From Bacteroidetes bacterium GWF2_43_63 (lineage in GTDB: Bacteria; Bacteroidota; Bacteroidia; Bacteroidales; DTU049): a stretch of 64,000 bases of DNA. Positions within the stretch are counted from its first letter, which is position 1; every line of letters starts with the position of its first letter. The notes under the pieces are model-generated. The model saw nothing but the letters and a program-made list of their open reading frames with translations, was not told where the DNA came from and searched no databases. Location: contig MEOQ01000001.1 in assembly GCA_001769275.1 (NCBI GenBank), positions 4,604 through 68,603 on the forward strand. Direction: 5' to 3'. The position numbers were made by a program, and so were the translations under genes. Below, piece after piece: positions 19,984-51,361 of the stretch.

Positions 19984-22900
19984 TTATTGTCGCACAATTC
20001 TAACGACTTCATTTCCAATTCTAAGGAAATACACACCTGCCGGATACACGCCCAGATCGAATTCTTTCTTCTGCGTCGATCCGTTTAGGTTATTGTATAG
20101 TCCTCTGAACAGCAACTTCCCTTTAGCATCGGTGAGTTCAACAATCGCATCAGCATTTGCTCCGCTTTGGATTATATAAATCATTCCATCTGCCGGATTC
20201 GGGAAAACGCTGAATACAATATTTCCATTTTCATCAATCGCATCGCAAGGCTCAATGGTAATGCTTATTGTATCAGCTGACTCACATCCGTCATTCACGG
20301 TAACACTCACGTCAAATGTGCTAACACCATGTCCGGTTGAATCAACGGTAAAAGTTTGTCCTGTTGCAGCTCCTTCGCTCCAGAGATAGGTGGCGCCTGT
20401 GTTTCCGGCATCAAGAACGATAAATGCATCAGCACAAATGGTGGTGTCGTTTCCTAACCAGACAACTGGAGTTGGATTCACCGTCAATTCAAGAATGTAT
20501 ACACTATCGCATCCTGTCTGGGTTTGCAGACTGTCGTAATAGATTCCTGCAGTTGAGTAATTTGCGGAATGCCAGGTATAGACTTCGCCTTCACACATTG
20601 TGTGTGTTTCAGTAAATTCATAAGTTGAGTTAACTGTGAGTTCTAAAACAAACACACTGTCGCAACCAGTCTGGGTTTGCAAACTATCGTAATAAGTTCC
20701 AGCAACAGAATAATCGTTTCCACGCCATGTGTATATATCTCCCTGGCACACTTCGACTTCGCTCAGTGTGACATAGGCGGGATTTACGGTGAGATTCAGT
20801 ACAAATATACTGTCGCAGCCAGTCTGGGTTTGCAGACTATCGTAATAAGTTCCAGCTACAGAATAATCGTTTCCGCGCCATGAGTAAATTTCTCCATTAC
20901 ATACTTCGACTTCGCTCAGTGTGACATATGAAGGATTGACGGTGAGATTCAGTGTATAAACGCTGTCGCAACCGTTCACTGTAGAGTATGATGCATTGTA
21001 AATTCCACCGGCTGTGTAGGTGTTCCCATGCCATGTGTAACTATCACCATTGCACATTGAATGACTTTCATTGAACGCAAAAGTTGGATTTACGGTCAGA
21101 TTCAGTACAAACACACTGTCGCAGCCAGTCTGGGTTTGCAGACTATCGTAGTAAGTTCCGGCAACAGAATAATCGTTTCCACGCCATGAGTAAACATCTC
21201 CCTGACACACTTCGACTCCGCTCAGTGTGACATAGGCGGGATTTACGGTGAGATTCAGTGTATAAATACTGTCGCAACCACCCGATGAAATGTACGATGC
21301 AGTAAAAGTGCCTGAAGAATTGTACGTGTTTCCATGCCATGTGTATGTTTCTCCGTCGCAAATACTGCTGTTTTCGGTAAATGCAAATCCTGCAACTTCA
21401 GAAAGAGTCAGCTCATAAATGCTGTCGCATCCGTTGATGGTGTTGTAGTATTTGGTATAAACACCGGGTGTTGTGTAAGTGGTTCCATGCCAGATGTACG
21501 CTGATCCCTGACAAATGGAATGACTTTCATTGAAAAGATACGAAGGTGTCACTGAAAGATTCAACGTGTAAATACTGTCGCATCCGTTTACAGTTGTGTA
21601 TGCAGCTGTATAAATGCCTGGCGTTGAATATATGGTCCCATGCCAGATGTAGCTATCTCCCTGGCAAACAGAATGGCTTTCGCTGAAAGCGTATTGTGGA
21701 TTTACAGACAGGTTCAGGGTGTAAACACTATCGCAACCCGTTGAAGAAACATAAGCTGCGGTATAAATTCCCGCAGTATTAAAAGTGTTTCCATGCCAGG
21801 AATAACTTTCGCCAATACAGATGCTGTGATCTTCGGAAAACGTATAGCTGGTAGTTTCTGTGAGGTTCAGGGTATAGGTGCTGTCACATCCGTTTACAGA
21901 AGTGTAGTTTTTTGTATACACACCAGGAGCTGAATAAGTTGTTCCGTGCCATGTATAACTTGATCCCTGACAAATTGCGTGATTTTCGCTGAAAGCATAA
22001 GTTGGACTCACGGTCAGATTAAGCGTATAGATGCTGTCGCAACCGTGAATGGTTGTGTACAGTTTTGTATAAATGCCAGGCAGCGAGTATGTGTTTCCGC
22101 GCCAGGAGATGCTTTGGCCCTGACACATGGTTTGATTTTCATTGAAAGAATAAGTCGGCCAGGTATTCAGATTGAGCGTGTAAGTACTGTCACAACCATG
22201 AATAGTCGAATATGTTCTGGTATAAACGCCAGCTGAAGAGTATGTAGTTCCTTTCCATGTATAGTTGTCTCCTTCGCACATAGTGTGGCTTTCGTTGAAT
22301 GAATATGTTGGATACACTTTCAAATCAAGCGTGTAAACACTGTCGCATCCACCTGCCGAAACATAGCTTGCTGCGTATATTCCCGGGGCGGTATACGTGG
22401 TTCCATGCCACAGATAGGAGCTGCCAACGCACATGTTGTGGATTTCAGAATAAGCATAGCTGGCAATCTCAGTGAGGTTTAGCGTGTAAATACTATCACA
22501 TCCGTGAATGGTCGTGTAGCTTTTTGTGTATACTCCCGGTGATGAATAGGTTGTCCCATGCCAGTTATAGCTCGATCCCTGACAAATTGCTTCATTGTCG
22601 TTGAAATGATAGGTCGGATGAACAACGAGACTCAGCGTATAAGTGCTGTCGCAACCATGAATGGTTGTGTAATGCTTTTGATAGTTGCCAGAGGCCGTAT
22701 AGGTAGTTCCATGCCAGGTGTAGCTTTCGCCGCTACAAATTGCATGATTTTCGTTGAATGAATAAGTGGGGTTCGTAGTCAGGTTCAGAACAAACACGCT
22801 GTCGCAGCCGCTTTGGGATAGCAAACTGTCGTAATAAGTGCCAGCTGTTGAGTACGTATTGCCGCGCCAGAAGAAGCTTTCACCCATACACACTTCGATT

Positions 22901-25900
22901 TCGCTTAGTGTGACATACGAAGGATTGACGGTTAGATTCAGCACAAACACACTGTCGCAGCCGGTTTGTGTAAGCAAACTATCATAGTACGTTCCGGTAG
23001 CAGTGTATGTATCACCGCGCCAGAAGTAGCTTTCACCGTTGCACACTTCGACTCCGCTCAGTGTGACATACGAAGGATTGACTGTTAGATTTAAAACAAA
23101 CACACTGTCACAACCGGATTGCGTAAGCAGACTATCGTAGTATGTTCCGGCAACAGAATAATCGTTTCCACGCCAGGTGTAAGACTCTCCATTGCACACT
23201 TCGACTCCGCTCAGTGTGACATAGTTCGGATTGACGGTCAGATTCAATGTGTATGTACTATCGCATCCGGTAGAGGAAACATATGTTGCAGTATATGTGC
23301 CAGCTGAATTATAGGTGTTTCCTTGCCAGGTGTATGAATCACCAGAACAGATGCTGTGATTTTCGCTGAATGAATACCCGGCAACTTCCGATAGATTGAG
23401 CGTGTAAATACTGTCGCAACCGTGAATGGTTGAATATGTTTTTGTGTATACGCCAGCCGCTGAATACGTGGTTCCATGCCATGTGTAGGATGAGCCCTGA
23501 CAGATGGAATTACTTTCACTGAAAGCGTACGTTGGATTGACAATAAGATTCAGCATAAATACGCTGTCACAGCCGGATTGAGTGAGCAGGCTATCATAAT
23601 AAGTGCCAGCAACGCTGTATGTATTACCGCGCCAGATGTACGTTTCGCCATTGCACACTTCGACTTCGCTCAATGTAAAATATTTTGGGTTGACTGAAAG
23701 ATTCAGTGTATAAATGCTGTCACAGCCATTTACTGTTGTGTATGCAGCGGTATAAGTGCCGGCTGTTGAATACGTCGTTCCATGCCAGGTATAGCTTTGT
23801 CCTTCACAGATGGAATAATTTTCAACATAGGAAAAGACCGGATTCACACTTAGGTTCAGTATGTATGTGCTGTCGCATCCTGACCCGGATGTGTACACAA
23901 CCGGATACGTTCCTGCAGTCGTATACGTGTTGCCCTGCCAGGTGTATGTCTCGCCATCACATATGCTGTGATTTTCAGTGAATGAATATTCGGCAACTTC
24001 AGTCAGATTAAGCGTGTAAATACTGTCGCACCCATGAATGGTTGTATAGTTTTTCACATAGGTTCCGGCAGCGGAATAAGTGGTCCCTTGCCACGTGTAG
24101 GTCGATCCCTGACAGATTGATTTATTTTCACTGAATGAATAAGTGGGATGAACCGTGAGCGACAATGTGTAGGTGCTGTCGCAGCCATTGCTGGTGGTGT
24201 AGGTTTTTGTATAAGTGCCGCTGGTTGTGTACGAGCTTCCATGCCAGTTGTAAGTACTACCCTGACAGATTTCTACCATGTCAAAAAACCCGTAAGCAGG
24301 ATAAACCGTAAGATTGAGGGTGTATGTACTGTCGCACCCATTCACCGTTGTGTAGTTTCTTGTAAAAAATCCTCCCGTTGTGTAATTGCTTCCATGCCAC
24401 ACATAGCTTTCGCCCTGACACATGCTGTAACTTTCGCTGAATGCATAAACCGGATTTACTGTAAGATTCAGAATAAACACACTGTCGCAGCCCGCCTGCG
24501 TTAGCAGACTGTCATAATATGTTCCTGCAACAGAATAGTTGTCACCATGCCATGAATACACTTCGCCCTGACAGACTTCGATTTCGCTCAATGTGACATA
24601 AGTGGGATTGACTGTCAGATTCAGGGTGTAAGTGCTGTCGCAACCTTTAGATGTCAAATAGTTTTTTGTGTAAACTCCGGTTGCCGAATACGTGGTTCCT
24701 TGCCAGGTATAGCTTTCGCCACTGCAGACTGAATGATTTTCGGCGAATGCGTATTCCGGATTTACTGTCAGATTCAGGGTGTAAGTGCTGTCGCAACCTT
24801 TAATTGAAATATAATTTTTCACATAGGTTCCGGCAACGTTGTACGTTGATCCATGCCAGGTGTAACTGTCTCCCGCGCATATGGAGCGGTTCTCCGCATA
24901 TGAGTAGGATGGATTGACTTTAAGATTGAGTGTATAAACACTGTCGCATCCGCCCGATGACACATAGGACGCTGAATAAATTCCGGCAGAAGTATAAGTG
25001 TTGCCATGCCATAAATAGGAGTTGCCCGAGCAAATGGTGTAGGTTTCAGAAAACGCATAGCTTGGAATCTGCGTCAGATTTAATGTATAAATACTGTCGC
25101 ATCCATGCGAAGAAACATAGGGTTTTGTGTAAACACCGGGAGTGGAATAAGTGGTTCCATGCCAGATGTAGCTTGAGCCCTGACAAACTGCGCGATTTTC
25201 GCTGAACGAATATTCCGGATAAACTGTGAGATTTAGTGTGTAAACACTATCGCATCCGTGAATCGTTGTGTAGGTTTTTGTATAAGTTCCCGGTGATGCA
25301 TAAACGCTTCCCTGCCAATTAATAGTTTCACCCTGACAGATAGCCTGATTTTCGTTGAATGCATAAACAGGATTAACCGCAAGATTCAATGTGAATATGC
25401 TGTCGCACCCATGAATGGTTGTGTACGTTTTTGTATATGTTCCTGCGGAGGAATAGGTTGTTCCATGCCAGGTGAAGCTCTGACCCTGACAAATGGAATA
25501 ATTTTCAACATATGAATACTTAGGAAAAACGGTAAGATTGAGCGTGTAAACACTGTCGCAGCCGCCGGTTGAAATATACGTCTTATTATAAATTCCGGAT
25601 GTTGAATACGTTGTTCCCTGCCAGATGTATGATTCTCCGCTACACATGCTGTGGTTTTCCGAAAACGCATACGTCGGAATGGCCGTAAGATTCAGCGTGT
25701 ACGTACTGTCACAACCATTAATGGTGAGATAGTTTTCCGAATACACGCCCGGTGTTGAATACGTGGTTCCATGCCATGTGTAGGACGATCCCTGACAAAT
25801 AGCTTTGTTTTCGCTGTATGAATAAGTTGCATTTACGGAGAGATTCAACGTATAAATGCTGTCGCAACCGTTGACAGTCGTGTAGCTTTTTGTGTATGTT

Positions 25901-28900
25901 CCGGGTGTGGCATACGTGCTGCCATGCCAGGTGTAAGTTTGTCCCTGACACACTTCGACTTCGCTCAGTGTGACATAGGTCGGATAAACGGTCACATTCA
26001 TTGTAACAACCGGAGCACATTGACCAGCGGTTGGGGTGAATGTATAGGTTGCTGTTCCTGCGCTTGCAGTGCTGATTGCAGCGGGGCTCCATGTTCCGGT
26101 AATTCCGTTGGTTGAAGTTGTCGGTAATGTTGCCGGGATTGCTTCTTTGCAATAGGAGCCAGCCTGAACAAAGGCCGGAGTTGTATTTGCATTTACCGTG
26201 ACGCTCATCGTAACTACAGGAGAACAAAGTCCTGCGGCGGGGGTGAACGTATAAACTGTTGTTCCAGCTGTGGCAGTGTTTATTGCAGACGGGCTCCAGG
26301 AGCCACTTACGCCGTTTGTTGATGTTGCTGGTAATGATGCGGGTGTTGCTCCAACACAATAAGGTCCAGGCTGTGTGAATGTCGGTGTTACGACCGGATT
26401 TACAGTAATCGAAAAAACAGTTGAAAACGCTGCAGGGCAGTTTCCACTAACCACTTCGGCCATGAACAGCCATGTTCCGATGGTTGAAATATCTTCGGAC
26501 CATGTTTCATCGGTATTGACAATATCAGTCCAGGTTGTACCCCCGTCATTGCTTGTTTGCCAGCGGGTAATGGTTCCGGTATAACCACTTAGCATAATTG
26601 CTCCGGTATTGCTGCCCGCACAAATGCTTGTATTAGGACCAGTCAATGTTCCGCCCACCGAAACCAGATCGTTGGTTAGTGTTACTGTATTTGATGTTGG
26701 CGAAGTAAGTGATCCATTTACCGTATAACCTTTGTAAGTCCCGGAGGCGAGTCCTGTAAATGTATGCGTGTCTGTTGCCCCAGTCCAGTTGGCAACTGGC
26801 GTTCCACTTCCGGTCTCCAGATAAAATGTTTGATTTGCCGAAACGGTAGAAGATAGTGTAACTGTTCCGGTTCCACAACCCGATGCTGCAGTGGCTGTAA
26901 CAGTAGCTGGAGTCGGACAGTCCATGGTGTGCCAGCCAAGGTGTGTGGCATCGTCAATGGCGTAGGCAGTCCATTCTGCACCAAAGGTTGGAAAACCTGC
27001 CGAAGGATTTGTGGTGACTCCGCCAAAAACAGTACTGTTGCGCACCAGTGTCATATTAAGCATTGACATGGTTCCTGAAGTCCAGGCAGTACCAGGGTCT
27101 TCGCCAATACGTCCCATGATGTCAACATACGAGGCGGTAGAAATTTTGTACAGTGCCAAAGCGTCATCGCCGTTGTAGAAGGTTGCGGTAGTGATGGTGG
27201 TGTCAGTTGTATAAATGGTTGCCAATGAATTTGAATACACTTTTACAGACCCGTTTACCAGCGTTCCGCTCAGCAGATAGTCGGTTGTTGGAGTTGTAGC
27301 GCCGTTCGGATACAGGCGCAACCGATAATCGGAGAGATTTACATCAACCCCTGTTCCATTATAAATTTCGATGTACTTGTTGCTGCTTGATCCTTCCACA
27401 TATTCAGAGATAATAAGGTCAGTGGCACAACCCGCCCCGCCTGCACCACCGGCTATGGTAGAACAAGTTGCAGTTAGTGCTGCAGGCACTGTTTTATAAT
27501 TTACATTCGAAGCGGAATTGGAATACGGATAAATTTTAAAGTAATAAGTTGTTGATGCTGTCAATCCTGAAAAACTAACGCTCTGAATTCCTGCGCTGAT
27601 ATTCTTAACCAGTGTCGCATCCGATTCCGGTGTTCCGTCAACAGGATCAGTAATAGCAGCCAGACTAATGTTGCTGGCTTTGATCAGATATTTATCCGGA
27701 AGAATTGTTCCGATGGCATCGGTCCATGTTAGTGTAATAGATGCGCTGGTGCTGGTTTCGCACGAAAAAGCTGTTGGATGATTTGTGGGTTCCGGTTTTA
27801 GTACAGTATAACTATAGATGGCCGAAGTAGTTGAATTACCGTCATTATCGGTAGCAATAATTCTGTACGTCACAGTTGTCCCTGCAACCTGCGCTGGAAT
27901 GGAGGTTGAAACAATGTAGTTCGGAGCTCCGTTCAGATTCATATTGATGCTGTTGCCGAAGCTGATTCCATCAGTGCACCATTGAAGTACAGCCGTGGAA
28001 ATACTGCCATCATCGGTGATATCAGCCGTAACCGAAACAGTATTAACCGGGCTCGGGAAAAGAGGAGTCTGAATAATATTGGTAATTACTGGAGCAGTTG
28101 AACAGACCGTTGACGTCCATACCAGACACACATATTCCGGATGATCGATGTACGGATTCCGGTTGTGCTGTGGTGTGTTATAGTAAATAGCATTATTTCG
28201 ATTGACTTCTTTTTGGCTCACCGGATCCTGAATATGCCAGCGCACCAGCATATCGATATACCATTGAAGGTAGTTTCCTCCGGTAGTGGTAATGATGTAT
28301 TGTGAATCGTAGGTGTAAGTATTTCTCCAAACACTCAAATAGTTCATATACCGTGTGGCCAGATAAAGATATGCGCGTGCAAAATCGCCTTTGTATTCAT
28401 TGATGGGTTCAAAAACGGAACCTGTAAAACCAGTCAGAGCGCAGGGTCCAACTTTACTTCCATTTGAAGAAGTGTATGTGGGCGCATTTGTTTCGGCAAC
28501 AATGTAATTGCTTTTTCTGTTGTTGACATACTGATCAGTAGGGGGCAGATGATGGAGATCAGAGTACTGAGGATTTGCTGCATTGTCTAAACCGCCCCAC
28601 CAGGAATTTGGCATCTGGTGCTCACGCGAATAACAATCACCTTCTGCACTTGCAGTGCCGCATTGGTCTGTGTATAACGTGAAAGTATAGGCAGGAGTTC
28701 CGCCTGGAATATCTGAATACATATCCCAGATTACGGTGCCCCCGGTTGTTGTTACATCGGTGTAACTATACGCATCCCACACATCGAAGGCTGTGCTTGT
28801 ATAGGGCAGTTTGACATGACCGCTGGTGATTATGTCGCGCAGATTGCCACGCAAAACATCGCCGGTGCCGGTAGCTGAATCGTAGTATCCGGCAGGAATT

Positions 28901-28959
28901 TGTGCGAATAAAAGTTGGCTGGCAAGTAAAGTAAGAGCTAAAAGTAAAAGTCTTTTCAT
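19984..28959 (-). CDS. giant T9SS-secreted protein: endonuclease I domain, FN3/Ig-like domains, lamin-tail domain, 36 x 51-aa Cys repeats, type A C-terminal sorting domain
   Basis: Signal peptide MKRLLLLALTLLASQLLFAQ. REHQMPNSWWGG and DLHHLPPTDQYVNNRKSNY are endonuclease I motifs. LIISEYVEGSSSNKYIEIYNGTGVDVNLSDYRL is the LTD. The CTD reads VFPNPADGMIYII...TDAKGKLL...GVYFLRI. Confidence 0.9.
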   Translation of the reverse strand: MKRLLLLALTLLASQLLFAQIPAGYYDSATGTGDVLRGNLRDIITSGHVKLPYTSTAFDVWDAYSYTDVTTTGGTVIWDMYSDIPGGTPAYTFTLYTDQCGTASAEGDCYSREHQMPNSWWGGLDNAANPQYSDLHHLPPTDQYVNNRKSNYIVAETNAPTYTSSNGSKVGPCALTGFTGSVFEPINEYKGDFARAYLYLATRYMNYLSVWRNTYTYDSQYIITTTGGNYLQWYIDMLVRWHIQDPVSQKEVNRNNAIYYNTPQHNRNPYIDHPEYVCLVWTSTVCSTAPVITNIIQTPLFPSPVNTVSVTADITDDGSISTAVLQWCTDGISFGNSINMNLNGAPNYIVSTSIPAQVAGTTVTYRIIATDNDGNSTTSAIYSYTVLKPEPTNHPTAFSCETSTSASITLTWTDAIGTILPDKYLIKASNISLAAITDPVDGTPESDATLVKNISAGIQSVSFSGLTASTTYYFKIYPYSNSASNVNYKTVPAALTATCSTIAGGAGGAGCATDLIISEYVEGSSSNKYIEIYNGTGVDVNLSDYRLRLYPNGATTPTTDYLLSGTLVNGSVKVYSNSLATIYTTDTTITTATFYNGDDALALYKISTASYVDIMGRIGEDPGTAWTSGTMSMLNMTLVRNSTVFGGVTTNPSAGFPTFGAEWTAYAIDDATHLGWHTMDCPTPATVTATAASGCGTGTVTLSSTVSANQTFYLETGSGTPVANWTGATDTHTFTGLASGTYKGYTVNGSLTSPTSNTVTLTNDLVSVGGTLTGPNTSICAGSNTGAIMLSGYTGTITRWQTSNDGGTTWTDIVNTDETWSEDISTIGTWLFMAEVVSGNCPAAFSTVFSITVNPVVTPTFTQPGPYCVGATPASLPATSTNGVSGSWSPSAINTATAGTTVYTFTPAAGLCSPVVTMSVTVNANTTPAFVQAGSYCKEAIPATLPTTSTNGITGTWSPAAISTASAGTATYTFTPTAGQCAPVVTMNVTVYPTYVTLSEVEVCQGQTYTWHGSTYATPGTYTKSYTTVNGCDSIYTLNLSVNATYSYSENKAICQGSSYTWHGTTYSTPGVYSENYLTINGCDSTYTLNLTAIPTYAFSENHSMCSGESYIWQGTTYSTSGIYNKTYISTGGCDSVYTLNLTVFPKYSYVENYSICQGQSFTWHGTTYSSAGTYTKTYTTIHGCDSIFTLNLAVNPVYAFNENQAICQGETINWQGSVYASPGTYTKTYTTIHGCDSVYTLNLTVYPEYSFSENRAVCQGSSYIWHGTTYSTPGVYTKPYVSSHGCDSIYTLNLTQIPSYAFSETYTICSGNSYLWHGNTYTSAGIYSASYVSSGGCDSVYTLNLKVNPSYSYAENRSICAGDSYTWHGSTYNVAGTYVKNYISIKGCDSTYTLNLTVNPEYAFAENHSVCSGESYTWQGTTYSATGVYTKNYLTSKGCDSTYTLNLTVNPTYVTLSEIEVCQGEVYSWHGDNYSVAGTYYDSLLTQAGCDSVFILNLTVNPVYAFSESYSMCQGESYVWHGSNYTTGGFFTRNYTTVNGCDSTYTLNLTVYPAYGFFDMVEICQGSTYNWHGSSYTTSGTYTKTYTTSNGCDSTYTLSLTVHPTYSFSENKSICQGSTYTWQGTTYSAAGTYVKNYTTIHGCDSIYTLNLTEVAEYSFTENHSICDGETYTWQGNTYTTAGTYPVVYTSGSGCDSTYILNLSVNPVFSYVENYSICEGQSYTWHGTTYSTAGTYTAAYTTVNGCDSIYTLNLSVNPKYFTLSEVEVCNGETYIWRGNTYSVAGTYYDSLLTQSGCDSVFMLNLIVNPTYAFSESNSICQGSSYTWHGTTYSAAGVYTKTYSTIHGCDSIYTLNLSEVAGYSFSENHSICSGDSYTWQGNTYNSAGTYTATYVSSTGCDSTYTLNLTVNPNYVTLSGVEVCNGESYTWRGNDYSVAGTYYDSLLTQSGCDSVFVLNLTVNPSYVTLSGVEVCNGESYFWRGDTYTATGTYYDSLLTQTGCDSVFVLNLTVNPSYVTLSEIEVCMGESFFWRGNTYSTAGTYYDSLLSQSGCDSVFVLNLTTNPTYSFNENHAICSGESYTWHGTTYTASGNYQKHYTTIHGCDSTYTLSLVVHPTYHFNDNEAICQGSSYNWHGTTYSSPGVYTKSYTTIHGCDSIYTLNLTEIASYAYSEIHNMCVGSSYLWHGTTYTAPGIYAASYVSAGGCDSVYTLDLKVYPTYSFNESHTMCEGDNYTWKGTTYSSAGVYTRTYSTIHGCDSTYTLNLNTWPTYSFNENQTMCQGQSISWRGNTYSLPGIYTKLYTTIHGCDSIYTLNLTVSPTYAFSENHAICQGSSYTWHGTTYSAPGVYTKNYTSVNGCDSTYTLNLTETTSYTFSEDHSICIGESYSWHGNTFNTAGIYTAAYVSSTGCDSVYTLNLSVNPQYAFSESHSVCQGDSYIWHGTIYSTPGIYTAAYTTVNGCDSIYTLNLSVTPSYLFNESHSICQGSAYIWHGTTYTTPGVYTKYYNTINGCDSIYELTLSEVAGFAFTENSSICDGETYTWHGNTYNSSGTFTASYISSGGCDSIYTLNLTVNPAYVTLSGVEVCQGDVYSWRGNDYSVAGTYYDSLQTQTGCDSVFVLNLTVNPTFAFNESHSMCNGDSYTWHGNTYTAGGIYNASYSTVNGCDSVYTLNLTVNPSYVTLSEVEVCNGEIYSWRGNDYSVAGTYYDSLQTQTGCDSIFVLNLTVNPAYVTLSEVEVCQGDIYTWRGNDYSVAGTYYDSLQTQTGCDSVFVLELTVNSTYEFTETHTMCEGEVYTWHSANYSTAGIYYDSLQTQTGCDSVYILELTVNPTPVVWLGNDTTICADAFIVLDAGNTGATYLWSEGAATGQTFTVDSTGHGVSTFDVSVTVNDGCESADTISITIEPCDAIDENGNIVFSVFPNPADGMIYIIQSGANADAIVELTDAKGKLLFRGLYNNLNGSTQKKEFDLGVYPAGVYFLRIGNEVVRIVRQ
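20470..25977 (-). repeat. 36 tandem copies of a 153-bp (51-aa) coding repeat
   Basis: aa 995-2830. Each copy fits Y..[ST]E...C.G..Y.W.G..Y...G.Y....Y/L....GCDS.Y/F.L.L.V.P, with no length variation. Confidence 0.9.
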
Positions 28960-34374: not shown

Positions 34375-35394
34375 TTAATACAGCGAAAAACTTTTTGACA
34401 GCGGGCTGTATTTTATAAACACTTCGAAGCACCCAAAACCATTGCTGGCCTCTTTCAGCGAGGAGGTGTTTATTTCGTACGCAACTCCGATTCCATAATT
34501 TGCATAATCGAACATGATGCGCGCCATCGCTGCATCATTAAGACGATAGGCGCCTCCGAAGCTAAATATGGCACGTGATACCGAATATTTTTCGCTTTGT
34601 TTGAGATAGAATTTGAAATCACCTCCGGCTGTCAGCTCATAGGCCGCGCCTTGCAACATGCCAAGTACCCATGGATTGAAAGCTGTTTTTTTATCTTTTC
34701 CCAAAGAAAAAAGCAAGTCGGTCATAAACACCATTTTAATGTCGGTCTGTTCTTCGCTCAGTGTAAGACGTTTTCCCTGGTTCAGATGCCAGAATCCGGC
34801 TGAAATGGTTCCGCTGCTTTTTGCGAAATGATCAATATTGGGTGCTTCGGACATAAATTTATATGATGTTCCGGCCGATAAATCAAAACTTGCTTTTTGT
34901 TGCTGTTCGAAATATTCTCCGTGCAGAATGCCCGGATCGTATTCGTATCCATTGAACTGATCGGTCCACATCAGATCATCGGGATCGAGCGACTCGTAGC
35001 GTGTTCCGCTTCCAATGCCGACGGTCATTATTTTTCCTTCGGATAATTTGACATTGGCTGAAGCTCCTAAATGCGCAAGCAGGCTGCTGTAGCTGAATGC
35101 CGACTGATTGAAAACAAATCCGCCAATGGATAATGTTGTGTTTGTTGATTTCGAAACGCGCGAGTTTCCGGATATTCCGTAGGTTTGAAATGCTGTGCCC
35201 ACATTGCGCCACTGGTTGCGATAAGCCATCTGAAAACTCATCTGATTATCCTGTGTTCCGATGAGCCCCGGCGACTGATATTCTATGAAGGCATTGCTAA
35301 AACTGAAGTGCGGATCCTGCGCATGAGTCTTGTTGCTGATGACGAAAAATGACATAAGCAACAGTGTGAATAAAATTGTTTTTATTGTTTTCAT
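34375..35394 (-). CDS. PorP/SprF-family T9SS outer-membrane protein
   Basis: Signal peptide followed by AQDPHFSFSN (the family's QDPHFSQ start); 339-aa beta-barrel-like. Lies 10 nt downstream of a type B CTD cargo gene. Confidence 0.8.
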   Translation of the reverse strand: MKTIKTILFTLLLMSFFVISNKTHAQDPHFSFSNAFIEYQSPGLIGTQDNQMSFQMAYRNQWRNVGTAFQTYGISGNSRVSKSTNTTLSIGGFVFNQSAFSYSSLLAHLGASANVKLSEGKIMTVGIGSGTRYESLDPDDLMWTDQFNGYEYDPGILHGEYFEQQQKASFDLSAGTSYKFMSEAPNIDHFAKSSGTISAGFWHLNQGKRLTLSEEQTDIKMVFMTDLLFSLGKDKKTAFNPWVLGMLQGAAYELTAGGDFKFYLKQSEKYSVSRAIFSFGGAYRLNDAAMARIMFDYANYGIGVAYEINTSSLKEASNGFGCFEVFIKYSPLSKSFSLY

Positions 35395-35404
35395 GTTGCT
35401 TTGT

Positions 35405-38400
35405 TTATCTGATTAAAACAAAATTTCCTTGTCCGTTCACTGCTGTACCATCTCGCAAAGTTCCATCGAACCAATAGCTGTAGATGCCGCTTTCCGACAT
35501 GGTTCCGTCAAAGTTGCCATCCCATCTTCCGTTTGGATCGGAGGTTTCATATACCAGATTTCCCCACTGATTATACACTTTCAGATTCAATGTTTCAAGA
35601 CAGCGATTCATTACGCCAAACACATCGTTTTTCTGATCGTTGTTCGGACTGAATGCATTTGGAACGTAGATGCTGCCACAATCTCCGTCCACCATAACGA
35701 TAACGGTATCGGTAGAAGTGCAACCATATTGGTTGGTTACAAGGAGTATATAGATTGTTGTATCGTCTGCACTGCAAATTGGATTGGCAATAGCTGGATC
35801 CGACAAATTATCAGAAGGCAACCACGAATATGTTCCACCACCGCTTCCGTTCAACTGAACAGTTGCACCTTCTTCAATGGTCGTGTCGATGCCAGCATTG
35901 GCAGTTGGATTTGGATTAACGATTACGGAAATGCTGTCAATATCTGAGCACCCGCCGTTGGTACCGGTAACAAGATAAGTGGCACTTGTTATTCCGCCAA
36001 TAGTAATAGAAGAAGTTGCAGCTCCGGTGTTCCAGGCATAAGTGGTGGCGCCGGAAGCGGATAGTACGGTGGTTTCGTTTTCGCAAATTTCCGTATCACC
36101 ATTGATATTAATATCAGGACTTTGATTTACAACCACTGTTGTATTGGAAGAATTTAAACAACCATTCAAGTCAGTTCCAACCACGGTGTAGGTACCTGCA
36201 TGAGTAAGTTGTGCAGTTGTGATTTCAGGAGTCTGTGAACTGCTACTAAAACCTGCAGGTCCGGCCCAGTAATAATCTGATGCGCCAAGTGCTGAAAGCA
36301 TTATACTCTCGCCAGTGCAATACGGGCCTCCGTTCGAACAGCTGACTGTGGGAAGAGAATTTACAGTTACCACAGACGAAGCCGTTGACGTGCATCCTCC
36401 CGTTCCTGAAACAACAACGGCATAGGTTCCCGAAATAGCCGGAGTTGCGGCTGTAATAGCTGGATTTGCGGCTGAAGAGTTGAATCCTGCGGGACCGCTC
36501 CATGCATACGAAATTCCACCAGTTGCTGTCAGGTTCACGGTCTCACCTGCACAATGTGGTCCATCGTTTATTGCAGATGCAACTGGAATGCTATTTACAA
36601 CCACGTTGGTGGTTTCACTGTCTGTGCATCCATTGGCAGTGGTAACTATTACCGAATATGTTCCTGCGTGAAGAGTGGTTGATGAAGAAATCGTTGGATT
36701 AGCCAGTGAACTGCTGAATCCGTTGGGTCCCGACCATGAATAAGTTGTGCCACCGGTTGCATTCAGTTGAATGTTCTGGCCGGCACAATAGGAGCCGGTG
36801 TTCGATGCTGTTGCTGTTGCCTGTGGATACACATTTACATTGATTGCGGATGTCGCAGAATTAAATCCGTCTGAAACCGTGACGGAATAAATTGTGCTGC
36901 CAGAAGGAACGAGATACGGATTATCGTCGGTTGATGAAAAACCTGTTGGATTTGATGACCATGAATAGTTATAAGAACCGGATCCACCCGAAGCCAGCGC
37001 TGTGAGCGTTACTCCATTTCCGGAACAAACGCCTGGAGCATCAGTTTGTGCAATCACCGAAAGCGCACCGCCACTGACATTGACAGTTACCTGCGATGTT
37101 GACATGCAACCTGTAACCTGATCAGTTACTGTAAGCGTGAAAACAGTCGTTGTTGTCAGATTGGTTGTCTGAGGACTCAAAACATTTGGATTTACCAGCG
37201 ATCCAGAAGGAGACCACGAATACATAAAACTGCCACTACCACCTGAAGCACTTCCCGTCAGGGTTGTGTTGGTTCCAAAAGGAATGGTTTGCGGACTTCC
37301 CGCATTTGCAGTGGGGTTTGAATTTATTGCAACGGTAGTGCTGGTGGTCGAACTACAGCCGGCTGCGTTTGTCACCGTAAGATTATAAGGGCCAGCATTG
37401 GTTGCAGTTGCATTGCTGATGGAAGGCGAGGCTGAAGAAGAGGTGAACCCGTTAGGCCCGGACCAGAGATACGAAGTTCCTCCGCTGCCAGTCAGGTTGA
37501 CTGTTGTCCCGACGCATCGGGGTGAGTTTGATGAGGCCGCTGCTGTTGGAGCCTGATTCACATCAAGCGTGTAGTTCAGATATTGGCGGTATCCGCAAAC
37601 ACCGGTAACTTCAAGACTGTAGGTCATGGTAGTAGCCGGATTTACAGAAATATTCTGCGTGGTCTGTCCGCCCGGATACCAATGATAGGCCGTAGCGCCG
37701 GGTGGTCCGAAAAGAGTTGTTGTACTACCTGCGCAAATAGGATCCTGTGCTGCAGTTATATTTGGGAACTGAACACCCGATTCAGCGCTGATGGTATAGT
37801 TGCAGATATCGCCTGCAAACCCGTCAATCATCAGGTAATAATCGCTGCCGATGGTGAGTCCGCGTGCAGTAATTTCAAAATGAATTCCGCTTTCCTCAAA
37901 ATTTGAAACAGGCGTAAAAGAAGCACAGGGGCTGCCTGCAGAGAACACCTGCATCTGAATACCTGCACCGGCATAACAATCATACACATCAACATTCAGC
38001 ACGGCCGAATCATTTGAAGCGGTAAAACGGAGCCAGGAATTGTTGTTGATTTGCACGTCACAATTAGTTGCTCCGCTACCCCAAACACCACCTGCACCAA
38101 AAATGCCTCCCTGACAGGTTCCGGCTGTGTAAGTGTATAATGGCGGATTATTTGTTTCAGCATTTCCCCGCATGTTTCCTGGTCTGTCGGGTGTATAAGC
38201 TTCGCCGGTCGTTCCTTTGTACCCATTCAAGTCGCAGATGTAGAGCGCGGTTGAACAGGCATCGTTGGTTGGCGTTGTAATACAGAATCCAAAATCACCC
38301 GTTGTATTGCCGCTATAAGCCCAGTAACGCAGAAAAACGGTTGATCCGGGCGCAAGTCCTGATGCCAAAATAAATGGCCTCAGATCGTTTGCAGTCAGAG

Positions 38401-39595
38401 GATAATTATTGTCGTCGGAACAAGCAATCTGTGTGAGCGAGCTGCAGGAGCCGGAGTACAGCGCCATAACTGCATCGCTGAATCCATAACCTGGTTTCGC
38501 CATGATGCTTATTACCCCGGAAGAAGGCACTGTGATTGCAAACCAGACATCTTTTGGCTGAGGAGTGTTGCTGAATCCCCCTTGCATGGGGCTGCTGCCG
38601 CCCGCACAGGAAGCCGGAGTTGGCGCTGATAAGGTTGTTGTTGCATTCGTTGTGGTAAACGAAAGATAAGCGCATGAAGATGTCACCGGTGGAAGTTGAA
38701 TAGCATCGCAGGGCTCATCGTTGGTGGGTGTCGGCGTTGGTGTACCGATGATGCAGATATTAAAAATACTACCTCCGTTGCCGGTGTAATAATCGTAAGT
38801 GCGGATGTAATAAGTTGTACCGGGAATCAATCCAACGGCACTGATGTTTTCGGCATCACCGCTGAAACCCTGATCAACACAATATAAACTGGTGAGAGTA
38901 GCACATGTTCCTGAAAACAATTCCAATACAAGATCTGCTGTTCCGGTCGGAGTAACCTGAATAGTTTGAACTGCATTTGTTGCAACAAAGCGATACCAGA
39001 CATCATCATCTGCAGTTCCCGCACAACCCGTCTGTGACAGGGTTGCAGAGACCGTCGTTCCGGCAGTTGCAACACAGGTTGCGTTCACGTTAAGTAGGGT
39101 TGCATTGCTGCAATTATCGTTGGTCGGCGCCGGAGGTGCAGTAGTTATACACACCGTGAATGTGCCGGAACCAAAACCTGTGAAGTAATGATAAATTCTG
39201 ATTTTATAAACAACTCCAATGGTAAGACCCGTTGCATAAATGGTTTCAGCTTCGCCCGTGAAACCCTGATCCATACAGTTCATAGATGTCAGAGTTGCAC
39301 AGTCACCAGAAAAGAGTTGCAACACGGGATCCATTCCTGCAGAAGGGGTTACCGTAATAATGTGACTGGTTGCGGTTGCGGTGAAAGAGTACCATACATC
39401 ATCGTCGGCGGTACCAACACAACCGGCAATGGTTTGTGTTGCTGTTGCAGTTGTACCCGCAACCGGACTTGAACAATTTAAGGTTATGGGAATGGCACTT
39501 GCAGCCGAACATCCGTCGCTCTGCGCCTGTGTTTCAACAGCTGAAAACATTAAAGCTGCGGACACAAACATCCCGAAAATGAATGTCATTTTCAT
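35405..39595 (-). CDS. large T9SS type B cargo (gliding-motility-associated C-terminal domain protein) with repeated PPC-like and Ig-like domains
   Basis: C-terminus YVPNAFSPNNDQKNDVFGV...LKVYNQWGNLVYE...WDGNFDG...GIYSYWF is the TIGR04131/type B sorting domain. The N-terminus has three DDDVWY-containing ~135-aa repeats, then many Ig-like units. Confidence 0.85.
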   Translation of the reverse strand: MKMTFIFGMFVSAALMFSAVETQAQSDGCSAASAIPITLNCSSPVAGTTATATQTIAGCVGTADDDVWYSFTATATSHIITVTPSAGMDPVLQLFSGDCATLTSMNCMDQGFTGEAETIYATGLTIGVVYKIRIYHYFTGFGSGTFTVCITTAPPAPTNDNCSNATLLNVNATCVATAGTTVSATLSQTGCAGTADDDVWYRFVATNAVQTIQVTPTGTADLVLELFSGTCATLTSLYCVDQGFSGDAENISAVGLIPGTTYYIRTYDYYTGNGGSIFNICIIGTPTPTPTNDEPCDAIQLPPVTSSCAYLSFTTTNATTTLSAPTPASCAGGSSPMQGGFSNTPQPKDVWFAITVPSSGVISIMAKPGYGFSDAVMALYSGSCSSLTQIACSDDNNYPLTANDLRPFILASGLAPGSTVFLRYWAYSGNTTGDFGFCITTPTNDACSTALYICDLNGYKGTTGEAYTPDRPGNMRGNAETNNPPLYTYTAGTCQGGIFGAGGVWGSGATNCDVQINNNSWLRFTASNDSAVLNVDVYDCYAGAGIQMQVFSAGSPCASFTPVSNFEESGIHFEITARGLTIGSDYYLMIDGFAGDICNYTISAESGVQFPNITAAQDPICAGSTTTLFGPPGATAYHWYPGGQTTQNISVNPATTMTYSLEVTGVCGYRQYLNYTLDVNQAPTAAASSNSPRCVGTTVNLTGSGGTSYLWSGPNGFTSSSASPSISNATATNAGPYNLTVTNAAGCSSTTSTTVAINSNPTANAGSPQTIPFGTNTTLTGSASGGSGSFMYSWSPSGSLVNPNVLSPQTTNLTTTTVFTLTVTDQVTGCMSTSQVTVNVSGGALSVIAQTDAPGVCSGNGVTLTALASGGSGSYNYSWSSNPTGFSSTDDNPYLVPSGSTIYSVTVSDGFNSATSAINVNVYPQATATASNTGSYCAGQNIQLNATGGTTYSWSGPNGFSSSLANPTISSSTTLHAGTYSVIVTTANGCTDSETTNVVVNSIPVASAINDGPHCAGETVNLTATGGISYAWSGPAGFNSSAANPAITAATPAISGTYAVVVSGTGGCTSTASSVVTVNSLPTVSCSNGGPYCTGESIMLSALGASDYYWAGPAGFSSSSQTPEITTAQLTHAGTYTVVGTDLNGCLNSSNTTVVVNQSPDININGDTEICENETTVLSASGATTYAWNTGAATSSITIGGITSATYLVTGTNGGCSDIDSISVIVNPNPTANAGIDTTIEEGATVQLNGSGGGTYSWLPSDNLSDPAIANPICSADDTTIYILLVTNQYGCTSTDTVIVMVDGDCGSIYVPNAFSPNNDQKNDVFGVMNRCLETLNLKVYNQWGNLVYETSDPNGRWDGNFDGTMSESGIYSYWFDGTLRDGTAVNGQGNFVLIR

Positions 39596-51176: not shown

Positions 51177-51361
51177 AGGCCTGGATTTTGTAATAAACCT
51201 GTTAATGTTTAATAAAAAACAAGCATCTAATATAATAGAAATTCTATTAAAATGCAAGTTTTCCCGATATTATAGTACCAGCACTGCTCTCAATAGGTCA
51301 AACTAAGCAAATATGTTTGCAAAGCTTTATTAATAATATAGGGTTCGACTTTTTGAAAAAT

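What the first reader, a model, noticed from the sequence alone, without database searches (positions are those of the whole stretch)
25978..28959. Endonuclease I plus a lamin-tail domain mounted on an 1836-aa repeat stalk with a T9SS anchor signal
- **Seen:** the signal peptide is followed by the endonuclease I signatures (EH.MP.SWW and DLHHL.P.....N..R.N). Next come FN3/Ig-like segments and a lamin-tail domain (LIISEYVEGSSSNKYIEIYNG...LSDYRL). The 36-unit array and a type A CTD come last.
- **Established:** the endonuclease I family contains secreted or periplasmic non-specific DNA/RNA nucleases. LTDs are frequent partners of extracellular nucleases. Type A CTD cargo is exported by the T9SS and often attached to the cell surface.
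- **Inference:** this is a cell-surface DNase held far from the outer membrane. Candidate roles are eDNA scavenging, biofilm or NET-like matrix remodelling, or a barrier against incoming DNA.

Nuclease heads on stalks of this length look unusual to me.
Basis: partly seen in the sequence, partly recalled or inferred. Interest (0 to 1): 0.55.

Follow-up and report, generated by a model that had tools for sequence, protein, structure and literature searches.

The report
Secreted DNase on a long repeat stalk
This is one 2991-residue gene from an uncultivated groundwater Bacteroidota bacterium that puts a DNA/RNA-cutting enzyme at the far end of 36 small repeat domains with a type IX secretion signal; the reading is correct, but long-stalked nucleases of this family are common, so it is only mildly unusual.

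Summary
Window 19984..28959 (-) is one 2991-aa ORF. It contains a signal peptide, Endonuclease_1 (PF04231, E=8e-63), a borderline fn3, an LTD (E=4e-12), 36 indel-free 51-aa units (aa 998-2833) and a T9SS type A CTD.

The catalytic Glu-His (E113-H114) and the metal-binding Asn (N146) align with Vvn E79-H80 and N127. Vvn Arg99 has no counterpart, because the omega-loop is shortened.

The protein is already public as a 'hypothetical protein' of Bacteroidetes bacterium GWF2_43_63. Two syntenic orthologues carry 33 and 34-35 units.

The 'unusual length' claim does not hold. Dozens of endonuclease I proteins of 1700-4400 aa exist on other Ig/fn3 stalks, and the same head also occurs in about 1050-1140-aa forms without this stalk.

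The more interesting part is the 51-aa unit:
- No Pfam or NCBIfam model covers it.
- Each unit has exactly two Cys and a Bacteroidota O-glycosylation sequon.
- The AlphaFold model is confident (pLDDT 93), all-beta, and closest to the stem of the Aureispira grappling hook GhpA.
- The unit is reused under other heads, including a second gene in this window.

Best reading: an extracellular, probably surface-tethered, Mg-dependent nuclease for eDNA degradation. New member of a known kind; interest about 0.3.

The parts
19984..28959 (-). Whole gene: 2991-aa secreted endonuclease I / LTD / 51-aa repeat stalk / T9SS CTD protein. It is identical to NCBI 'hypothetical protein A2W93_03660, Bacteroidetes bacterium GWF2_43_63'.
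   Evidence: ORF list and translation. A 100% identical cluster, P0201, is named by NCBI. The exact protein lies on 10 contigs.
28900..28959 (-). Probable Sec signal peptide, aa 1-20 (MKRLLLLALTLLASQLLFAQ, cleavage before IPAGYY).
   Evidence: By inspection. The AQ|IP junction is conserved in homologue alignments. No signal-peptide predictor was available.
28135..28866 (-). Endonuclease I (His-Me finger) catalytic domain, aa 32-275.
   Evidence: PF04231 E=8.4e-63, full-length model match. A profile of Bacteroidota heads hits the Vibrio endonuclease I structures 2pu3, 1oup, 1ouo, 2g7e and 2vnd at E 1e-14 to 1e-10. The only meaningful Foldseek hits of the model are those same enzymes.
28618..28623 (-). 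Glu113-His114, equivalent to Vvn Glu79 (metal contact) and His80 (general base).
   Evidence: Colinear BLOSUM62 local alignment with Vvn chain residues 58-210. The Vvn sequence and numbering were recovered. Both residues are invariant in alignments A1 and A3. Roles of E79/H80 come from PMC5758888.
28522..28524 (-). Asn146, equivalent to the Mg-binding Asn127 of Vvn.
   Evidence: HMMER alignments to 2pu3, 1oup and 1ouo over DLHxLxPxxxxVNxxRSN and the pairwise alignment. Invariant in A1 and A3.
27517..27780 (-). FN3-like domain, aa 394-481 (borderline).
   Evidence: PF00041, 24.9 bits against a gathering score of 25. Homologues carry precomputed PF00041.
27136..27423 (-). Lamin tail domain, aa 513-608.
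   Evidence: PF00932 E=4e-12, 46.9 bits against 34.3. NCBIfam aligns ExeM model positions 23-178, its LTD region, to aa 512-681.
25969..26892 (-). About 300 aa of beta-rich, Cys-containing segments between the LTD and the array, aa 690-997. It includes two ~68-aa copies of a TPxFTQxGxYCxG...SGxWSP... motif. No family is assigned.
   Evidence: No Pfam hit at E<=0.01 for aa 686-985. Segments were read. One segment type is repeated several times in homologue P0002.
20461..25968 (-). Stalk of 36 tandem 51-aa units, aa 998-2833. Consensus: xExxxxCxGxxYxWxGxxYxxxGxYxxxxxxxxGCDSxxxLxLxVxPxYxx. Each unit has exactly 2 Cys and one GCD[ST][AILVMT] sequon.
   Evidence: Exact 51-residue spacing. Cys and sequon counts. 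No Pfam or NCBIfam match. The AF2 model of 3 units has pLDDT 92.9 with 5 strands per unit. The best PDB matches are GhpA stem/neck fragments.
20254..20472 (-). Ig-like segment between array and CTD, aa about 2830-2902. Weak similarity to Ig_7 (CHU_C-associated Ig).
   Evidence: PF19081, 20.7 bits against a cut-off of 27.3, so sub-threshold.
20005..20208 (-). T9SS type A C-terminal sorting domain, aa about 2918-2985.
   Evidence: PF18962 E=3.3e-10 (40.5 bits against 27) and TIGR04183 E=7.9e-9 (35.4 bits against 23).

Best explanation
The gene encodes an extracellular, non-specific, Mg2+-dependent DNA/RNA endonuclease of the endonuclease I (His-Me finger) family.

- **Export (inferred):** it crosses the inner membrane by Sec, using the N-terminal signal peptide. 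It crosses the outer membrane by the type IX secretion system, using the C-terminal type A sorting domain.
- **Topology (follows from domain order):** the sorting and anchoring signal is C-terminal and the nuclease is N-terminal. The enzyme, with its Ig/FN3/LTD accessory domains, therefore sits at the distal tip.
- **Stalk (predicted):** 36 small all-beta, disulfide-containing 51-aa domains are joined by linkers of about 3 residues. Each carries a Bacteroidota O-glycosylation sequon. Their predicted fold is closest to the Ig-like stem of the T9SS grappling hook GhpA.
- **Length (rough inference):** 36 units at about 3 nm each (9-10-residue strands) gives a rod of the order of 100 nm.
- **Function (inferred):** degradation of extracellular DNA/RNA beyond the cell's glycan layer, to harvest phosphorus, nitrogen and carbon or to cut eDNA matrix. 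The setting is a groundwater/sediment Bacteroidota bacterium.

Shown: domain content, intact Glu-His/Asn catalytic core, exact repeat architecture, conservation in orthologues. Inferred: secretion route, surface tethering, stalk rigidity and length, glycosylation, physiological role.
For: - **Family and domains:** PF04231 full-length match at E=8e-63, with LTD and type A CTD above curated cut-offs.
- **Catalytic core:** E113-H114 and N146 align with Vvn E79-H80 and N127 and are invariant in 35 homologues. Their roles come from PMC5758888.
- **Precedent:** a T9SS-transported endonuclease I of Riemerella anatipestifer has Mg-dependent DNase and RNase activity (PMC12398890).
- **Stalk geometry:** 36 indel-free units. 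The 3-unit model has pLDDT 92.9, five strands per unit and about 3-residue linkers. Foldseek top hits are GhpA neck/stem fragments at E 4.6e-7 to 1.2e-4. GhpA is a T9SS substrate whose N-terminal head is distal and whose glycosylated, disulfide-linked Ig-like stem gives a 240-nm appendage (bioRxiv 10.1101/2024.01.29.577165).
- **Sequons and Cys:** D[ST][AILVMT] occurs in 36 of 36 units, 45 times in the stalk against 6.5+-2.4 in shuffles and only 2 in the 997-aa head. Each unit has exactly 2 Cys.
- **Selection on the long form:** orthologues P0202 and P0203 (74% identity) keep 34-35 and 33 units in largely collinear order at a syntenic locus. Units within the array average only 54% identity.
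- **T9SS in the genome:** a PorP/SprF gene and further CTD proteins lie in the same window.
Against: - Vvn Arg99, the transition-state-stabilising arginine, has no aligned equivalent. It aligns with Leu122, and the omega-loop is 12 aa against 26.
- The head model is only moderately confident (pLDDT 72) and is poor across the active-site region (41-58). Foldseek E-values to endonuclease I structures are therefore weak, 2.6e-3 to 0.1.
- Type A CTD cargo is not always retained on the cell. From my own knowledge, many are released in Flavobacterium-type organisms. Tethering is therefore unproven.
- No PorP/PorE-type anchor genes flank this gene, unlike ghpA.
- There is no expression or activity data, and the organism is uncultivated.
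Confidence: 0.55

Rival explanations
1. The protein is released rather than tethered, and the 51-aa units are binding or adhesive modules, not a spacer. The Tyr/Trp/Thr/Ser-rich array would stick the nuclease to particles, polysaccharide or biofilm matrix and so localise DNA degradation there.
For: - The stalk is rich in Thr (14.9%), Ser (12.6%) and Tyr (11.4%), and each unit has a conserved Trp, as in many carbohydrate-binding or adhesin repeats.
- No dedicated PorP/PorE-like anchor genes lie next to the gene.
- The same units occur under GloVer repeat heads typical of surface adhesin-like proteins.
- From my own knowledge, type A CTD cargo can be released.
Against: - Unit length is strictly constant and linkers are about 3 residues.
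- The fold resembles a structural stem, GhpA, not any known binding module.
- A glycosylation sequon in every unit fits a protected structural rod better than a ligand-binding surface.
- No carbohydrate-binding family hit was found.
Confidence: 0.25
2. The surface nuclease acts mainly in defence or competition, not nutrition. Examples would be cutting eDNA-based matrices or traps of competitors or grazers, dispersing its own biofilm, or limiting uptake of foreign DNA.
For: - Extracellular nucleases have documented roles in biofilm remodelling and NET escape (PMC3212620 and PMC6085458 abstracts; PMC12398890).
- Periplasmic family members lower transformation (PMC5714182).
Against: - The organism comes from an aquifer metagenome, not a host.
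- An enzyme held far outside the outer membrane is badly placed to intercept DNA entering the periplasm.
- There is no linked immunity, toxin or competence gene. Neighbourhoods of homologues are unrelated housekeeping genes.
Confidence: 0.1
3. The head is a catalytically weakened DNA-binding module. The protein would then be an eDNA-binding adhesin or tether rather than an enzyme.
For: - The Arg99 equivalent is missing and the omega-loop, which contacts DNA in Vvn, is halved (PMC5758888).
- The active-site region is poorly modelled.
Against: - Glu-His and Asn are invariant across the clade, which argues for purifying selection on catalysis.
- The missing Arg is a clade-wide feature shared with thousands of homologues, including proteobacterial ones.
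- An invariant Arg112 sits directly before Glu-His and could substitute. This is inference only.
- A T9SS endonuclease I is enzymatically active in Riemerella. I could not confirm that it belongs to the same sub-clade.
Confidence: 0.07
4. The 36-unit array is an assembly artefact, with a short-read collapse or expansion producing an inflated ORF.
For: The source is a short-read metagenome scaffold. Tandem repeats are error-prone in assembly.
Against: - Units share at most 86% DNA identity, with a mean protein identity of 54%, so they are distinguishable by reads.
- The reading frame is intact over 8976 nt.
- The identical protein is on 10 contigs.
- Two independent orthologues from other samples have 33 and 34-35 largely collinear units.
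Confidence: 0.03

Closest known systems
Endonuclease I family (PF04231; His-Me finger group 9): Vibrio vulnificus Vvn, V. cholerae/V. salmonicida EndA, E. coli EndA, B. subtilis RNase Bsn
   Same: - Full-length Pfam match.
- Glu-His general-base pair, metal-binding Asn, the DLHxLxP...VNxxRSN helix and the C-terminal NxNPF motif all align.
- Secreted or periplasmic, sequence-independent nucleases (PMC5714182).
   Different: - Those enzymes are single-domain proteins of about 210-235 aa. This one is 2991 aa.
- The omega-loop is about half as long and lacks Arg99/Lys100.
- Sequence identity to Vvn is low. phmmer aligns only the C-terminal two thirds.
Riemerella anatipestifer T9SS-transported endonuclease I (EndoI, AS87_RS02625; Shen et al. 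2023, as summarised in PMC12398890)
   Same: A Bacteroidota endonuclease I exported by the T9SS. It has experimentally shown Mg2+-dependent DNase activity plus RNase activity.
   Different: - It comes from a host-associated pathogen and is linked to virulence.
- I did not obtain its sequence, so its domain architecture, its length and whether it shares the short omega-loop were not compared here.
Multidomain 'endonuclease' proteins of Bacteroidota with Endonuclease_1 + FN3 + LTD + Por_Secre_tail (e.g. P0003, P0006, P0008 of 1043-1139 aa; P0210, P0227, P0260, P0279 of 2967-4419 aa)
   Same: - Same head, 60-66% identical over nuclease, Ig, FN3 and LTD.
- Same CTD logic.
- Many are also very long.
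   Different: - Their bodies are built from other modules (Ig_7, fn3, PKD, Ig_3 and others).
- Only three clusters combine this head with the 51-aa array: this protein, P0202 and P0203.
GhpA, the grappling hook protein of Aureispira sp. CCB-QB1 (PDB 9flp, 9flw, 9fls, 9fly)
   Same: - T9SS substrate with a functional head at the N-terminus and a CTD at the C-terminus.
- A long stem of tandem small Ig-like beta domains with disulfides and O-glycans.
- Best structural match of the 51-aa repeat model, E 4.6e-7 and TM 0.42-0.49.
   Different: - GhpA has an adhesin hook, not an enzyme.
- It has 52 'slightly varying' repeats, heptamerises, and has PorP/PorE-like genes adjacent.
- Here the units are a uniform 51 aa, sequence identity to GhpA is about 16%, oligomerisation is unknown, and no anchor genes are adjacent.
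LTD-bearing extracellular nucleases ExeM (Shewanella) and Xds (Vibrio cholerae)
   Same: Extracellular nucleases that carry a lamin tail domain. The LTD here aligns to the ExeM LTD region. In ExeM the LTD is needed for full activity in vitro but is dispensable for extracellular DNA degradation (PMC6085458).
   Different: - ExeM and Xds use an EEP-superfamily catalytic domain and OB folds, not endonuclease I.
- They are not T9SS cargo and have no repeat stalk.

Membership tests
Endonuclease I (Pfam PF04231, His-Me finger) | Match to the family HMM above the curated gathering score | tested here: met
   212.7 bits against 25, E=8.4e-63, model positions 1-235 of 235.
Endonuclease I (Pfam PF04231, His-Me finger) | General-base His preceded by a metal-contacting acidic residue (Vvn Glu79-His80) | tested here: met
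   E113-H114 align with Vvn chain E61-H62, which are E79-H80. Both are invariant in A1 and A3.
Endonuclease I (Pfam PF04231, His-Me finger) | Metal-binding Asn on the core helix (Vvn Asn127) | tested here: met
   N146 aligns with it in the HMMER and pairwise alignments and is invariant.
Endonuclease I (Pfam PF04231, His-Me finger) | Omega-loop arginine that stabilises the scissile phosphate (Vvn Arg99) | tested here: not met
   GGRKN of Vvn aligns with GGLDN, placing Leu122 at the Arg99 position. The loop is 12 aa against 26 and is variable and Arg-free across the clade. An invariant Arg112 precedes Glu-His, but its spatial role is untested.
Endonuclease I (Pfam PF04231, His-Me finger) | Vvn-like fold (beta-beta-alpha core plus C-terminal helical domain) | tested here: inconclusive
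   The only significant Foldseek hits are 2pu3, 1oup, 2vnd and 2g7f (probability 0.95-1.00). TM is only 0.27-0.39, and the model has pLDDT 72 overall and 41-58 over the active-site region.
Endonuclease I (Pfam PF04231, His-Me finger) | Divalent-cation-dependent, sequence-independent DNase/RNase activity | not testable with these tools
   Needs an enzyme assay.
Lamin tail domain (PF00932) | HMM match above the gathering score | tested here: met
   46.9 bits against 34.3, E=4e-12, aa 513-608. The ExeM LTD region also aligns.
Fibronectin type III (PF00041) | HMM match above the gathering score | tested here: inconclusive
   24.9 bits against 25. The family is listed as 'faint' or 'weak' for this protein and its orthologues.
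T9SS type A cargo | Type A C-terminal sorting domain at the extreme C-terminus | tested here: met
   TIGR04183, 35.4 bits against 23. PF18962, 40.5 bits against 27. The match ends 6 residues before the stop.
T9SS type A cargo | N-terminal Sec signal peptide | tested here: inconclusive
   A typical n-h-c region, MKR / L-rich / FAQ|IP, seen by eye. No predictor was available.
T9SS type A cargo | T9SS present in the organism | tested here: met
   A PorP/SprF gene lies at 34375-35394. A CHU_C type B cargo and two further type A CTD proteins are in the same window. Core genes such as sprA/sov and porU/V were not looked for.
T9SS type A cargo | CTD cleavage and covalent attachment to the cell surface | not testable with these tools
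   Needs proteomics or fractionation.
GhpA-like grappling-hook stem | Tandem small Ig-like beta domains structurally similar to the GhpA stem | tested here: met
   Foldseek hits to 9flp, 9flw, 9fls and 9fly at E 4.6e-7 to 1.2e-4, TMq 0.33-0.49, 11-16% identity. This is a resemblance of fold, not shown homology.
GhpA-like grappling-hook stem | Adjacent PorP/PorE-type anchor genes (ghpB/ghpC) | tested here: not met
   The flanking genes are a histidine kinase/LytTR pair and a radical SAM gene. The PorP/SprF gene in the window is paired with a different, type B CTD protein.
GhpA-like grappling-hook stem | Heptameric, hollow, rigid assembly | not testable with these tools
   Needs cryo-EM or cryo-ET.
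Bacteroidota general O-glycosylation targets | Sequon D-(S/T)-(A/I/L/V/M/T). The motif is from my own knowledge (Fletcher/Coyne/Comstock work); Coyne 2013 is cited. | tested here: met
   36 of 36 units carry GCD[ST][AILVMT]. There are 45 sequons in the stalk against 6.5+-2.4 expected. Actual glycosylation is not testable here.

The most novel reading that the evidence does not exclude
The 51-aa two-cysteine, sequon-bearing unit may be a dedicated 'spacer' module of Bacteroidota T9SS cargo that has no family model yet. It would build rigid, glycosylated, possibly oligomeric, GhpA-like fibres about 100 nm long. These fibres would be reused as a chassis to display interchangeable working heads well beyond the cell surface. 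Known heads include this nuclease, GloVer repeat heads in the same window, and M43 or C10 peptidases elsewhere. In effect they would be enzymatic 'fishing rods', with unit number tuning the reach.
Probability: 0.2. Interest if true: 0.6.

Novelty: new member of a known kind. Interest (0 to 1): 0.3.

Why it matters
If the reading is right, this groundwater bacterium degrades extracellular nucleic acids at a distance from its own surface. That bears on how sediment and aquifer Bacteroidota harvest eDNA phosphorus and nitrogen.

The nuclease itself is ordinary. The family is large, annotated, and has a characterised T9SS-exported member.

The more useful by-product is the 51-aa unit:
- It has exact periodicity.
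- It has one presumed disulfide and one O-glycosylation sequon per unit.
- It has a confident GhpA-stem-like model.
- It has no Pfam or NCBIfam model in the copies searched.
- It recurs in arrays of about 10-38 units under different heads.

Describing it as a family would improve annotation of many giant 'hypothetical' T9SS proteins. It would also give a simple system for asking how stalk length is set and what it is for.

Tried and rejected
1. **'No long homologues.'** The first homologue search with a 700-aa query returned nothing above 1199 aa. The 153-aa repeat query returned nothing above 267 aa. This appears to be a length ceiling of roughly 1.7 times the query in that tool, not biology. 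The full-length query and the exhaustive representative search found many long forms, so I discarded the earlier impression.
2. **Functional link to the divergent LytS-type kinase / LytTR regulator.** The pair is conserved next to the two close orthologues. It is absent next to the 62-66% identical short-form homologues P0004, P0006 and P0008, whose neighbourhoods are unrelated. I treat it as plain synteny, not an operon-like association.
3. **Assembly artefact.** Rejected; see the rival explanations.
4. **Aligning the Glu-His motif to PDB sequences.** phmmer with the single sequence, the profile, and a 36-aa peptide all failed to reach it. MAFFT --add misplaced it. I solved this by recovering the Vvn sequence with a remembered EndA fragment and running a gapped local pairwise alignment.
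5. **Naming the 51-aa unit.** Pfam and NCBIfam gave no match, only sub-threshold brushes with PKD, MBG, Big_3 and Ig_7 in some homologous fragments. One fragment, P0123, carries a precomputed PF26689.1 that the local Pfam copy did not match, so I could not identify it.
7. **Model coordinates.** They are not exposed, so I could not measure the rise per unit.
8. **Terminator and promoter scans.** No intrinsic terminator was found downstream. The upstream region has only a near-match, TAtcTTTa, to the Bacteroidota -7 element by eye. I did not pursue this.


Full report
**What is there**

The finding's coordinates (25978-28959) are the 5' third of a single minus-strand ORF, 19984..28959, of 2991 aa. 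Curated-threshold matches place the domains as follows.
- Endonuclease_1 (PF04231): aa 32-275, E=8.4e-63, covering the whole model.
- Lamin tail domain (PF00932): aa 513-608, E=4e-12.
- T9SS type A sorting domain (PF18962, TIGR04183): aa about 2918-2985.
- FN3: 24.9 bits against a cut-off of 25, so borderline.

The N-terminus, MKRLLLLALTLLASQLLFAQ|IPAGYY, looks like a Sec signal peptide. That judgement is by inspection only.

Between aa 998 and 2833 there are 36 units of exactly 51 residues with no insertion or deletion. The only correction is that the gene is three times longer than the interval given.

**Is the nuclease intact?**

A profile of ten Bacteroidota heads hits the solved Vibrio endonuclease I structures (2pu3, 1oup/1ouo = Vvn, 2g7e, 2vnd) at E 1e-14 to 1e-10. 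HMMER aligned only the region from the metal-binding helix onward. I therefore recovered the Vvn sequence and made a gapped local alignment.

| Vvn residue | Role (PMC5758888; PMC5714182) | This protein |
|---|---|---|
| Glu79-His80 | metal contact and general base | Glu113-His114 |
| Asn127 | metal ligand | Asn146 |
| Arg99 | omega-loop Arg that stabilises the transition state | Leu122 (not conserved) |

Glu113, His114 and Asn146 are invariant in alignments of 10 and 35 homologues. The omega-loop here is 12 residues against 26 in Vvn. The loop is variable and Arg-free throughout this clade, so this is a clade property and not decay of this gene. An invariant Arg112 sits immediately before Glu-His, and whether it compensates is untested.

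An AlphaFold model of the head was only moderately confident (pLDDT 72) and poor around the active site. Its only meaningful PDB matches were the four endonuclease I structures.

A T9SS-transported endonuclease I with Mg-dependent DNase activity plus RNase activity has been characterised in Riemerella anatipestifer (PMC12398890). I could not obtain its sequence to compare the loop.

**Is the architecture unusual?**

My first search suggested that homologues stop at about 1200 aa. That was a ceiling of the tool relative to query length, and the 153-aa query behaved the same way.

With the full-length query:
- The protein itself appears as NCBI 'hypothetical protein A2W93_03660 [Bacteroidetes bacterium GWF2_43_63]'.
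- There are two orthologues: P0202 (2938 aa, 74% identity) and P0203 (2837 aa, annotated 'endonuclease').
- There are dozens of other PF04231 proteins of 1700-4419 aa.

In an exhaustive search of 1.84 billion cluster representatives, the head has 8115 relatives at E<=1e-3. Among the best 150, 16 exceed 1500 aa and 7 are at least 2000 aa.

The identical head arrangement (nuclease, Ig-like, FN3, LTD) also exists without this stalk, in 1043-1139-aa proteins ending in a T9SS CTD. The head type extends to Ignavibacteria and, at 44-46% identity, to Vibrio, Pseudoalteromonas and Photobacterium.

What is specific here is the combination with the 51-aa array. Only this protein, P0202 and P0203 have it.

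**The stalk**

The 51-aa unit is not covered by Pfam or NCBIfam in the copies searched. Its properties are:
- Each unit has exactly two cysteines and the invariant GCDS motif.
- GCDS followed by T, I or V matches the Bacteroidota O-glycosylation sequon D-(S/T)-(A/I/L/V/M/T) in 36 of 36 units. The motif definition is from my own knowledge.
- The stalk has 45 sequons against 6.5+-2.4 in composition-matched shuffles. The 997-aa head has only 2.
- A three-unit AlphaFold model, built on 82 in-register repeat triplets and homologous fragments, is confident (pLDDT 92.9, pTM 0.60). It is all-beta with five strands per unit, and only about three residues separate the last strand of one unit from the first strand of the next.
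- Its best PDB matches are four cryo-EM fragments of GhpA, the Aureispira grappling hook, at E 4.6e-7 to 1.2e-4 and TM 0.33-0.49.

GhpA is a 5898-aa T9SS substrate. Its N-terminal hook is held 240 nm from the cell by a stem of 52 glycosylated, disulfide-linked Ig-like repeats. The resemblance is of fold and logic, not shown homology, since sequence identity is 11-16%. The adjacent PorP/PorE anchor genes of ghpA are absent here.

From 9-10-residue strands I estimate about 3 nm per unit, hence a rod of the order of 100 nm.

**Evolution and reality of the array**

- Units average 54% protein identity (range 29-86%) and at most 86% DNA identity.
- The two orthologues have 33 and 34-35 units in largely collinear order (unit i matches unit i). 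Local differences concentrate in a 'YYDSL' sub-type of unit.
- The three genes are syntenic.
- The exact protein occurs on ten contigs.

The array is therefore old, maintained and real, and its copy number drifts slightly.

The same unit forms arrays elsewhere. A 20-unit array sits in the neighbouring gene 45093..51257, under 14 GloVer repeats. Scattered units occur in 51410..60400. In other organisms, arrays of about 10-38 units lie under M43 or C10 peptidase, PKD and other heads, with type A or type B CTDs.

**Context**

Upstream and divergent is a LytS-type histidine kinase plus LytTR regulator, followed by an S46 peptidase. Downstream is a radical SAM gene. The kinase/regulator pair is conserved only among the close orthologues. 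It is not found next to more distant short-form homologues. I therefore read it as synteny, and the nuclease as a stand-alone gene.

**Most likely mechanism**

1. Sec export.
2. T9SS translocation through the type A CTD.
3. Probable tethering by the C-terminus, with the nuclease and its LTD at the distal tip of an extended, probably glycosylated stalk.
4. Non-specific Mg-dependent cleavage of extracellular DNA/RNA for nutrient capture or matrix cutting.

Domain content and the catalytic core are shown. Secretion route, tethering, stalk geometry, glycosylation and role are inferred. My confidence is about 0.55.

The main rival, at about 0.25, is a released enzyme whose repeats act as adhesive modules. 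A defence or competition role, a catalytically dead DNA-binding head, and an assembly artefact are less likely.

**Verdict**

This is a correctly read gene that is already deposited. It is a new member (a lineage-specific stalk version) of a large, annotated class of T9SS-exported multidomain endonuclease I proteins, and its interest is modest at 0.3. The uncatalogued 51-aa stalk module is the part most worth following up.

Noticed in passing
window 45093..51257 (-); repeat array 45570..48629: This is a second giant T9SS type A cargo of 2054 aa. It has 14 GloVer (TIGR03803) repeats, then 20 indel-free 51-aa units of the same family as the nuclease stalk, then the CTD. Some of its units are up to 95% identical at DNA level, so part of this array was amplified recently, unlike the nuclease array.
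   Followed up: partly
window 51410..60400 (-): This is a third giant T9SS cargo of 2996 aa. It has CglD-like acidic Ca-binding-type repeats and many CDDxxxxIxPGAxExCDGxDxDC motifs. It also has GloVer blocks and scattered 51-aa-like units (8 GCDS anchors). Its last ~70 residues are nearly identical to the CTD of the neighbouring gene 45093..51257, apart from a 6-residue deletion (DALGQI). That suggests recent duplication or recombination between the two.
   Followed up: partly
window 20461..25968 compared with 45570..48629: The 'YYDSL' sub-type units of the nuclease stalk (units 10, 16, 19-21, 32, 34-36) resemble the units of the neighbouring gene's array more than other units do. DNA identity reaches 0.70-0.74, against about 0.55 for the rest. 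This hints at exchange between paralogous arrays about 20 kb apart.
   Followed up: partly
window 34375..39595 (-): A 1396-aa protein with Ig_7 domains and a CHU_C type B T9SS signal (PF13585) is immediately followed by a PorP/SprF-family gene. This is the usual pairing of a type B cargo with its own PorP-like partner.
   Followed up: partly
window 4001..6000; ORF 4294..5325 (+): This is a low-GC island (0.325 against about 0.44 elsewhere) with positive GC skew. It holds a 343-aa ORF with a weak NucS_C endonuclease-like match (28.7 bits). It may be foreign DNA or a restriction/defence remnant.
   Followed up: no
homologue fragment P0123: This 51-aa-repeat fragment carries a precomputed Pfam accession, PF26689.1, that the local Pfam-A copy did not match. 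A Pfam family touching this repeat may therefore already exist in a newer release.
   Followed up: partly
L004 (OY782882.1, 4.86-Mb closed Bacteroidales MAG chromosome, 1966658-1969455): This closed long-read MAG encodes a head 81% identical to this one. It would be the best place to verify the repeat count of an orthologue without short-read assembly doubts.
   Followed up: no
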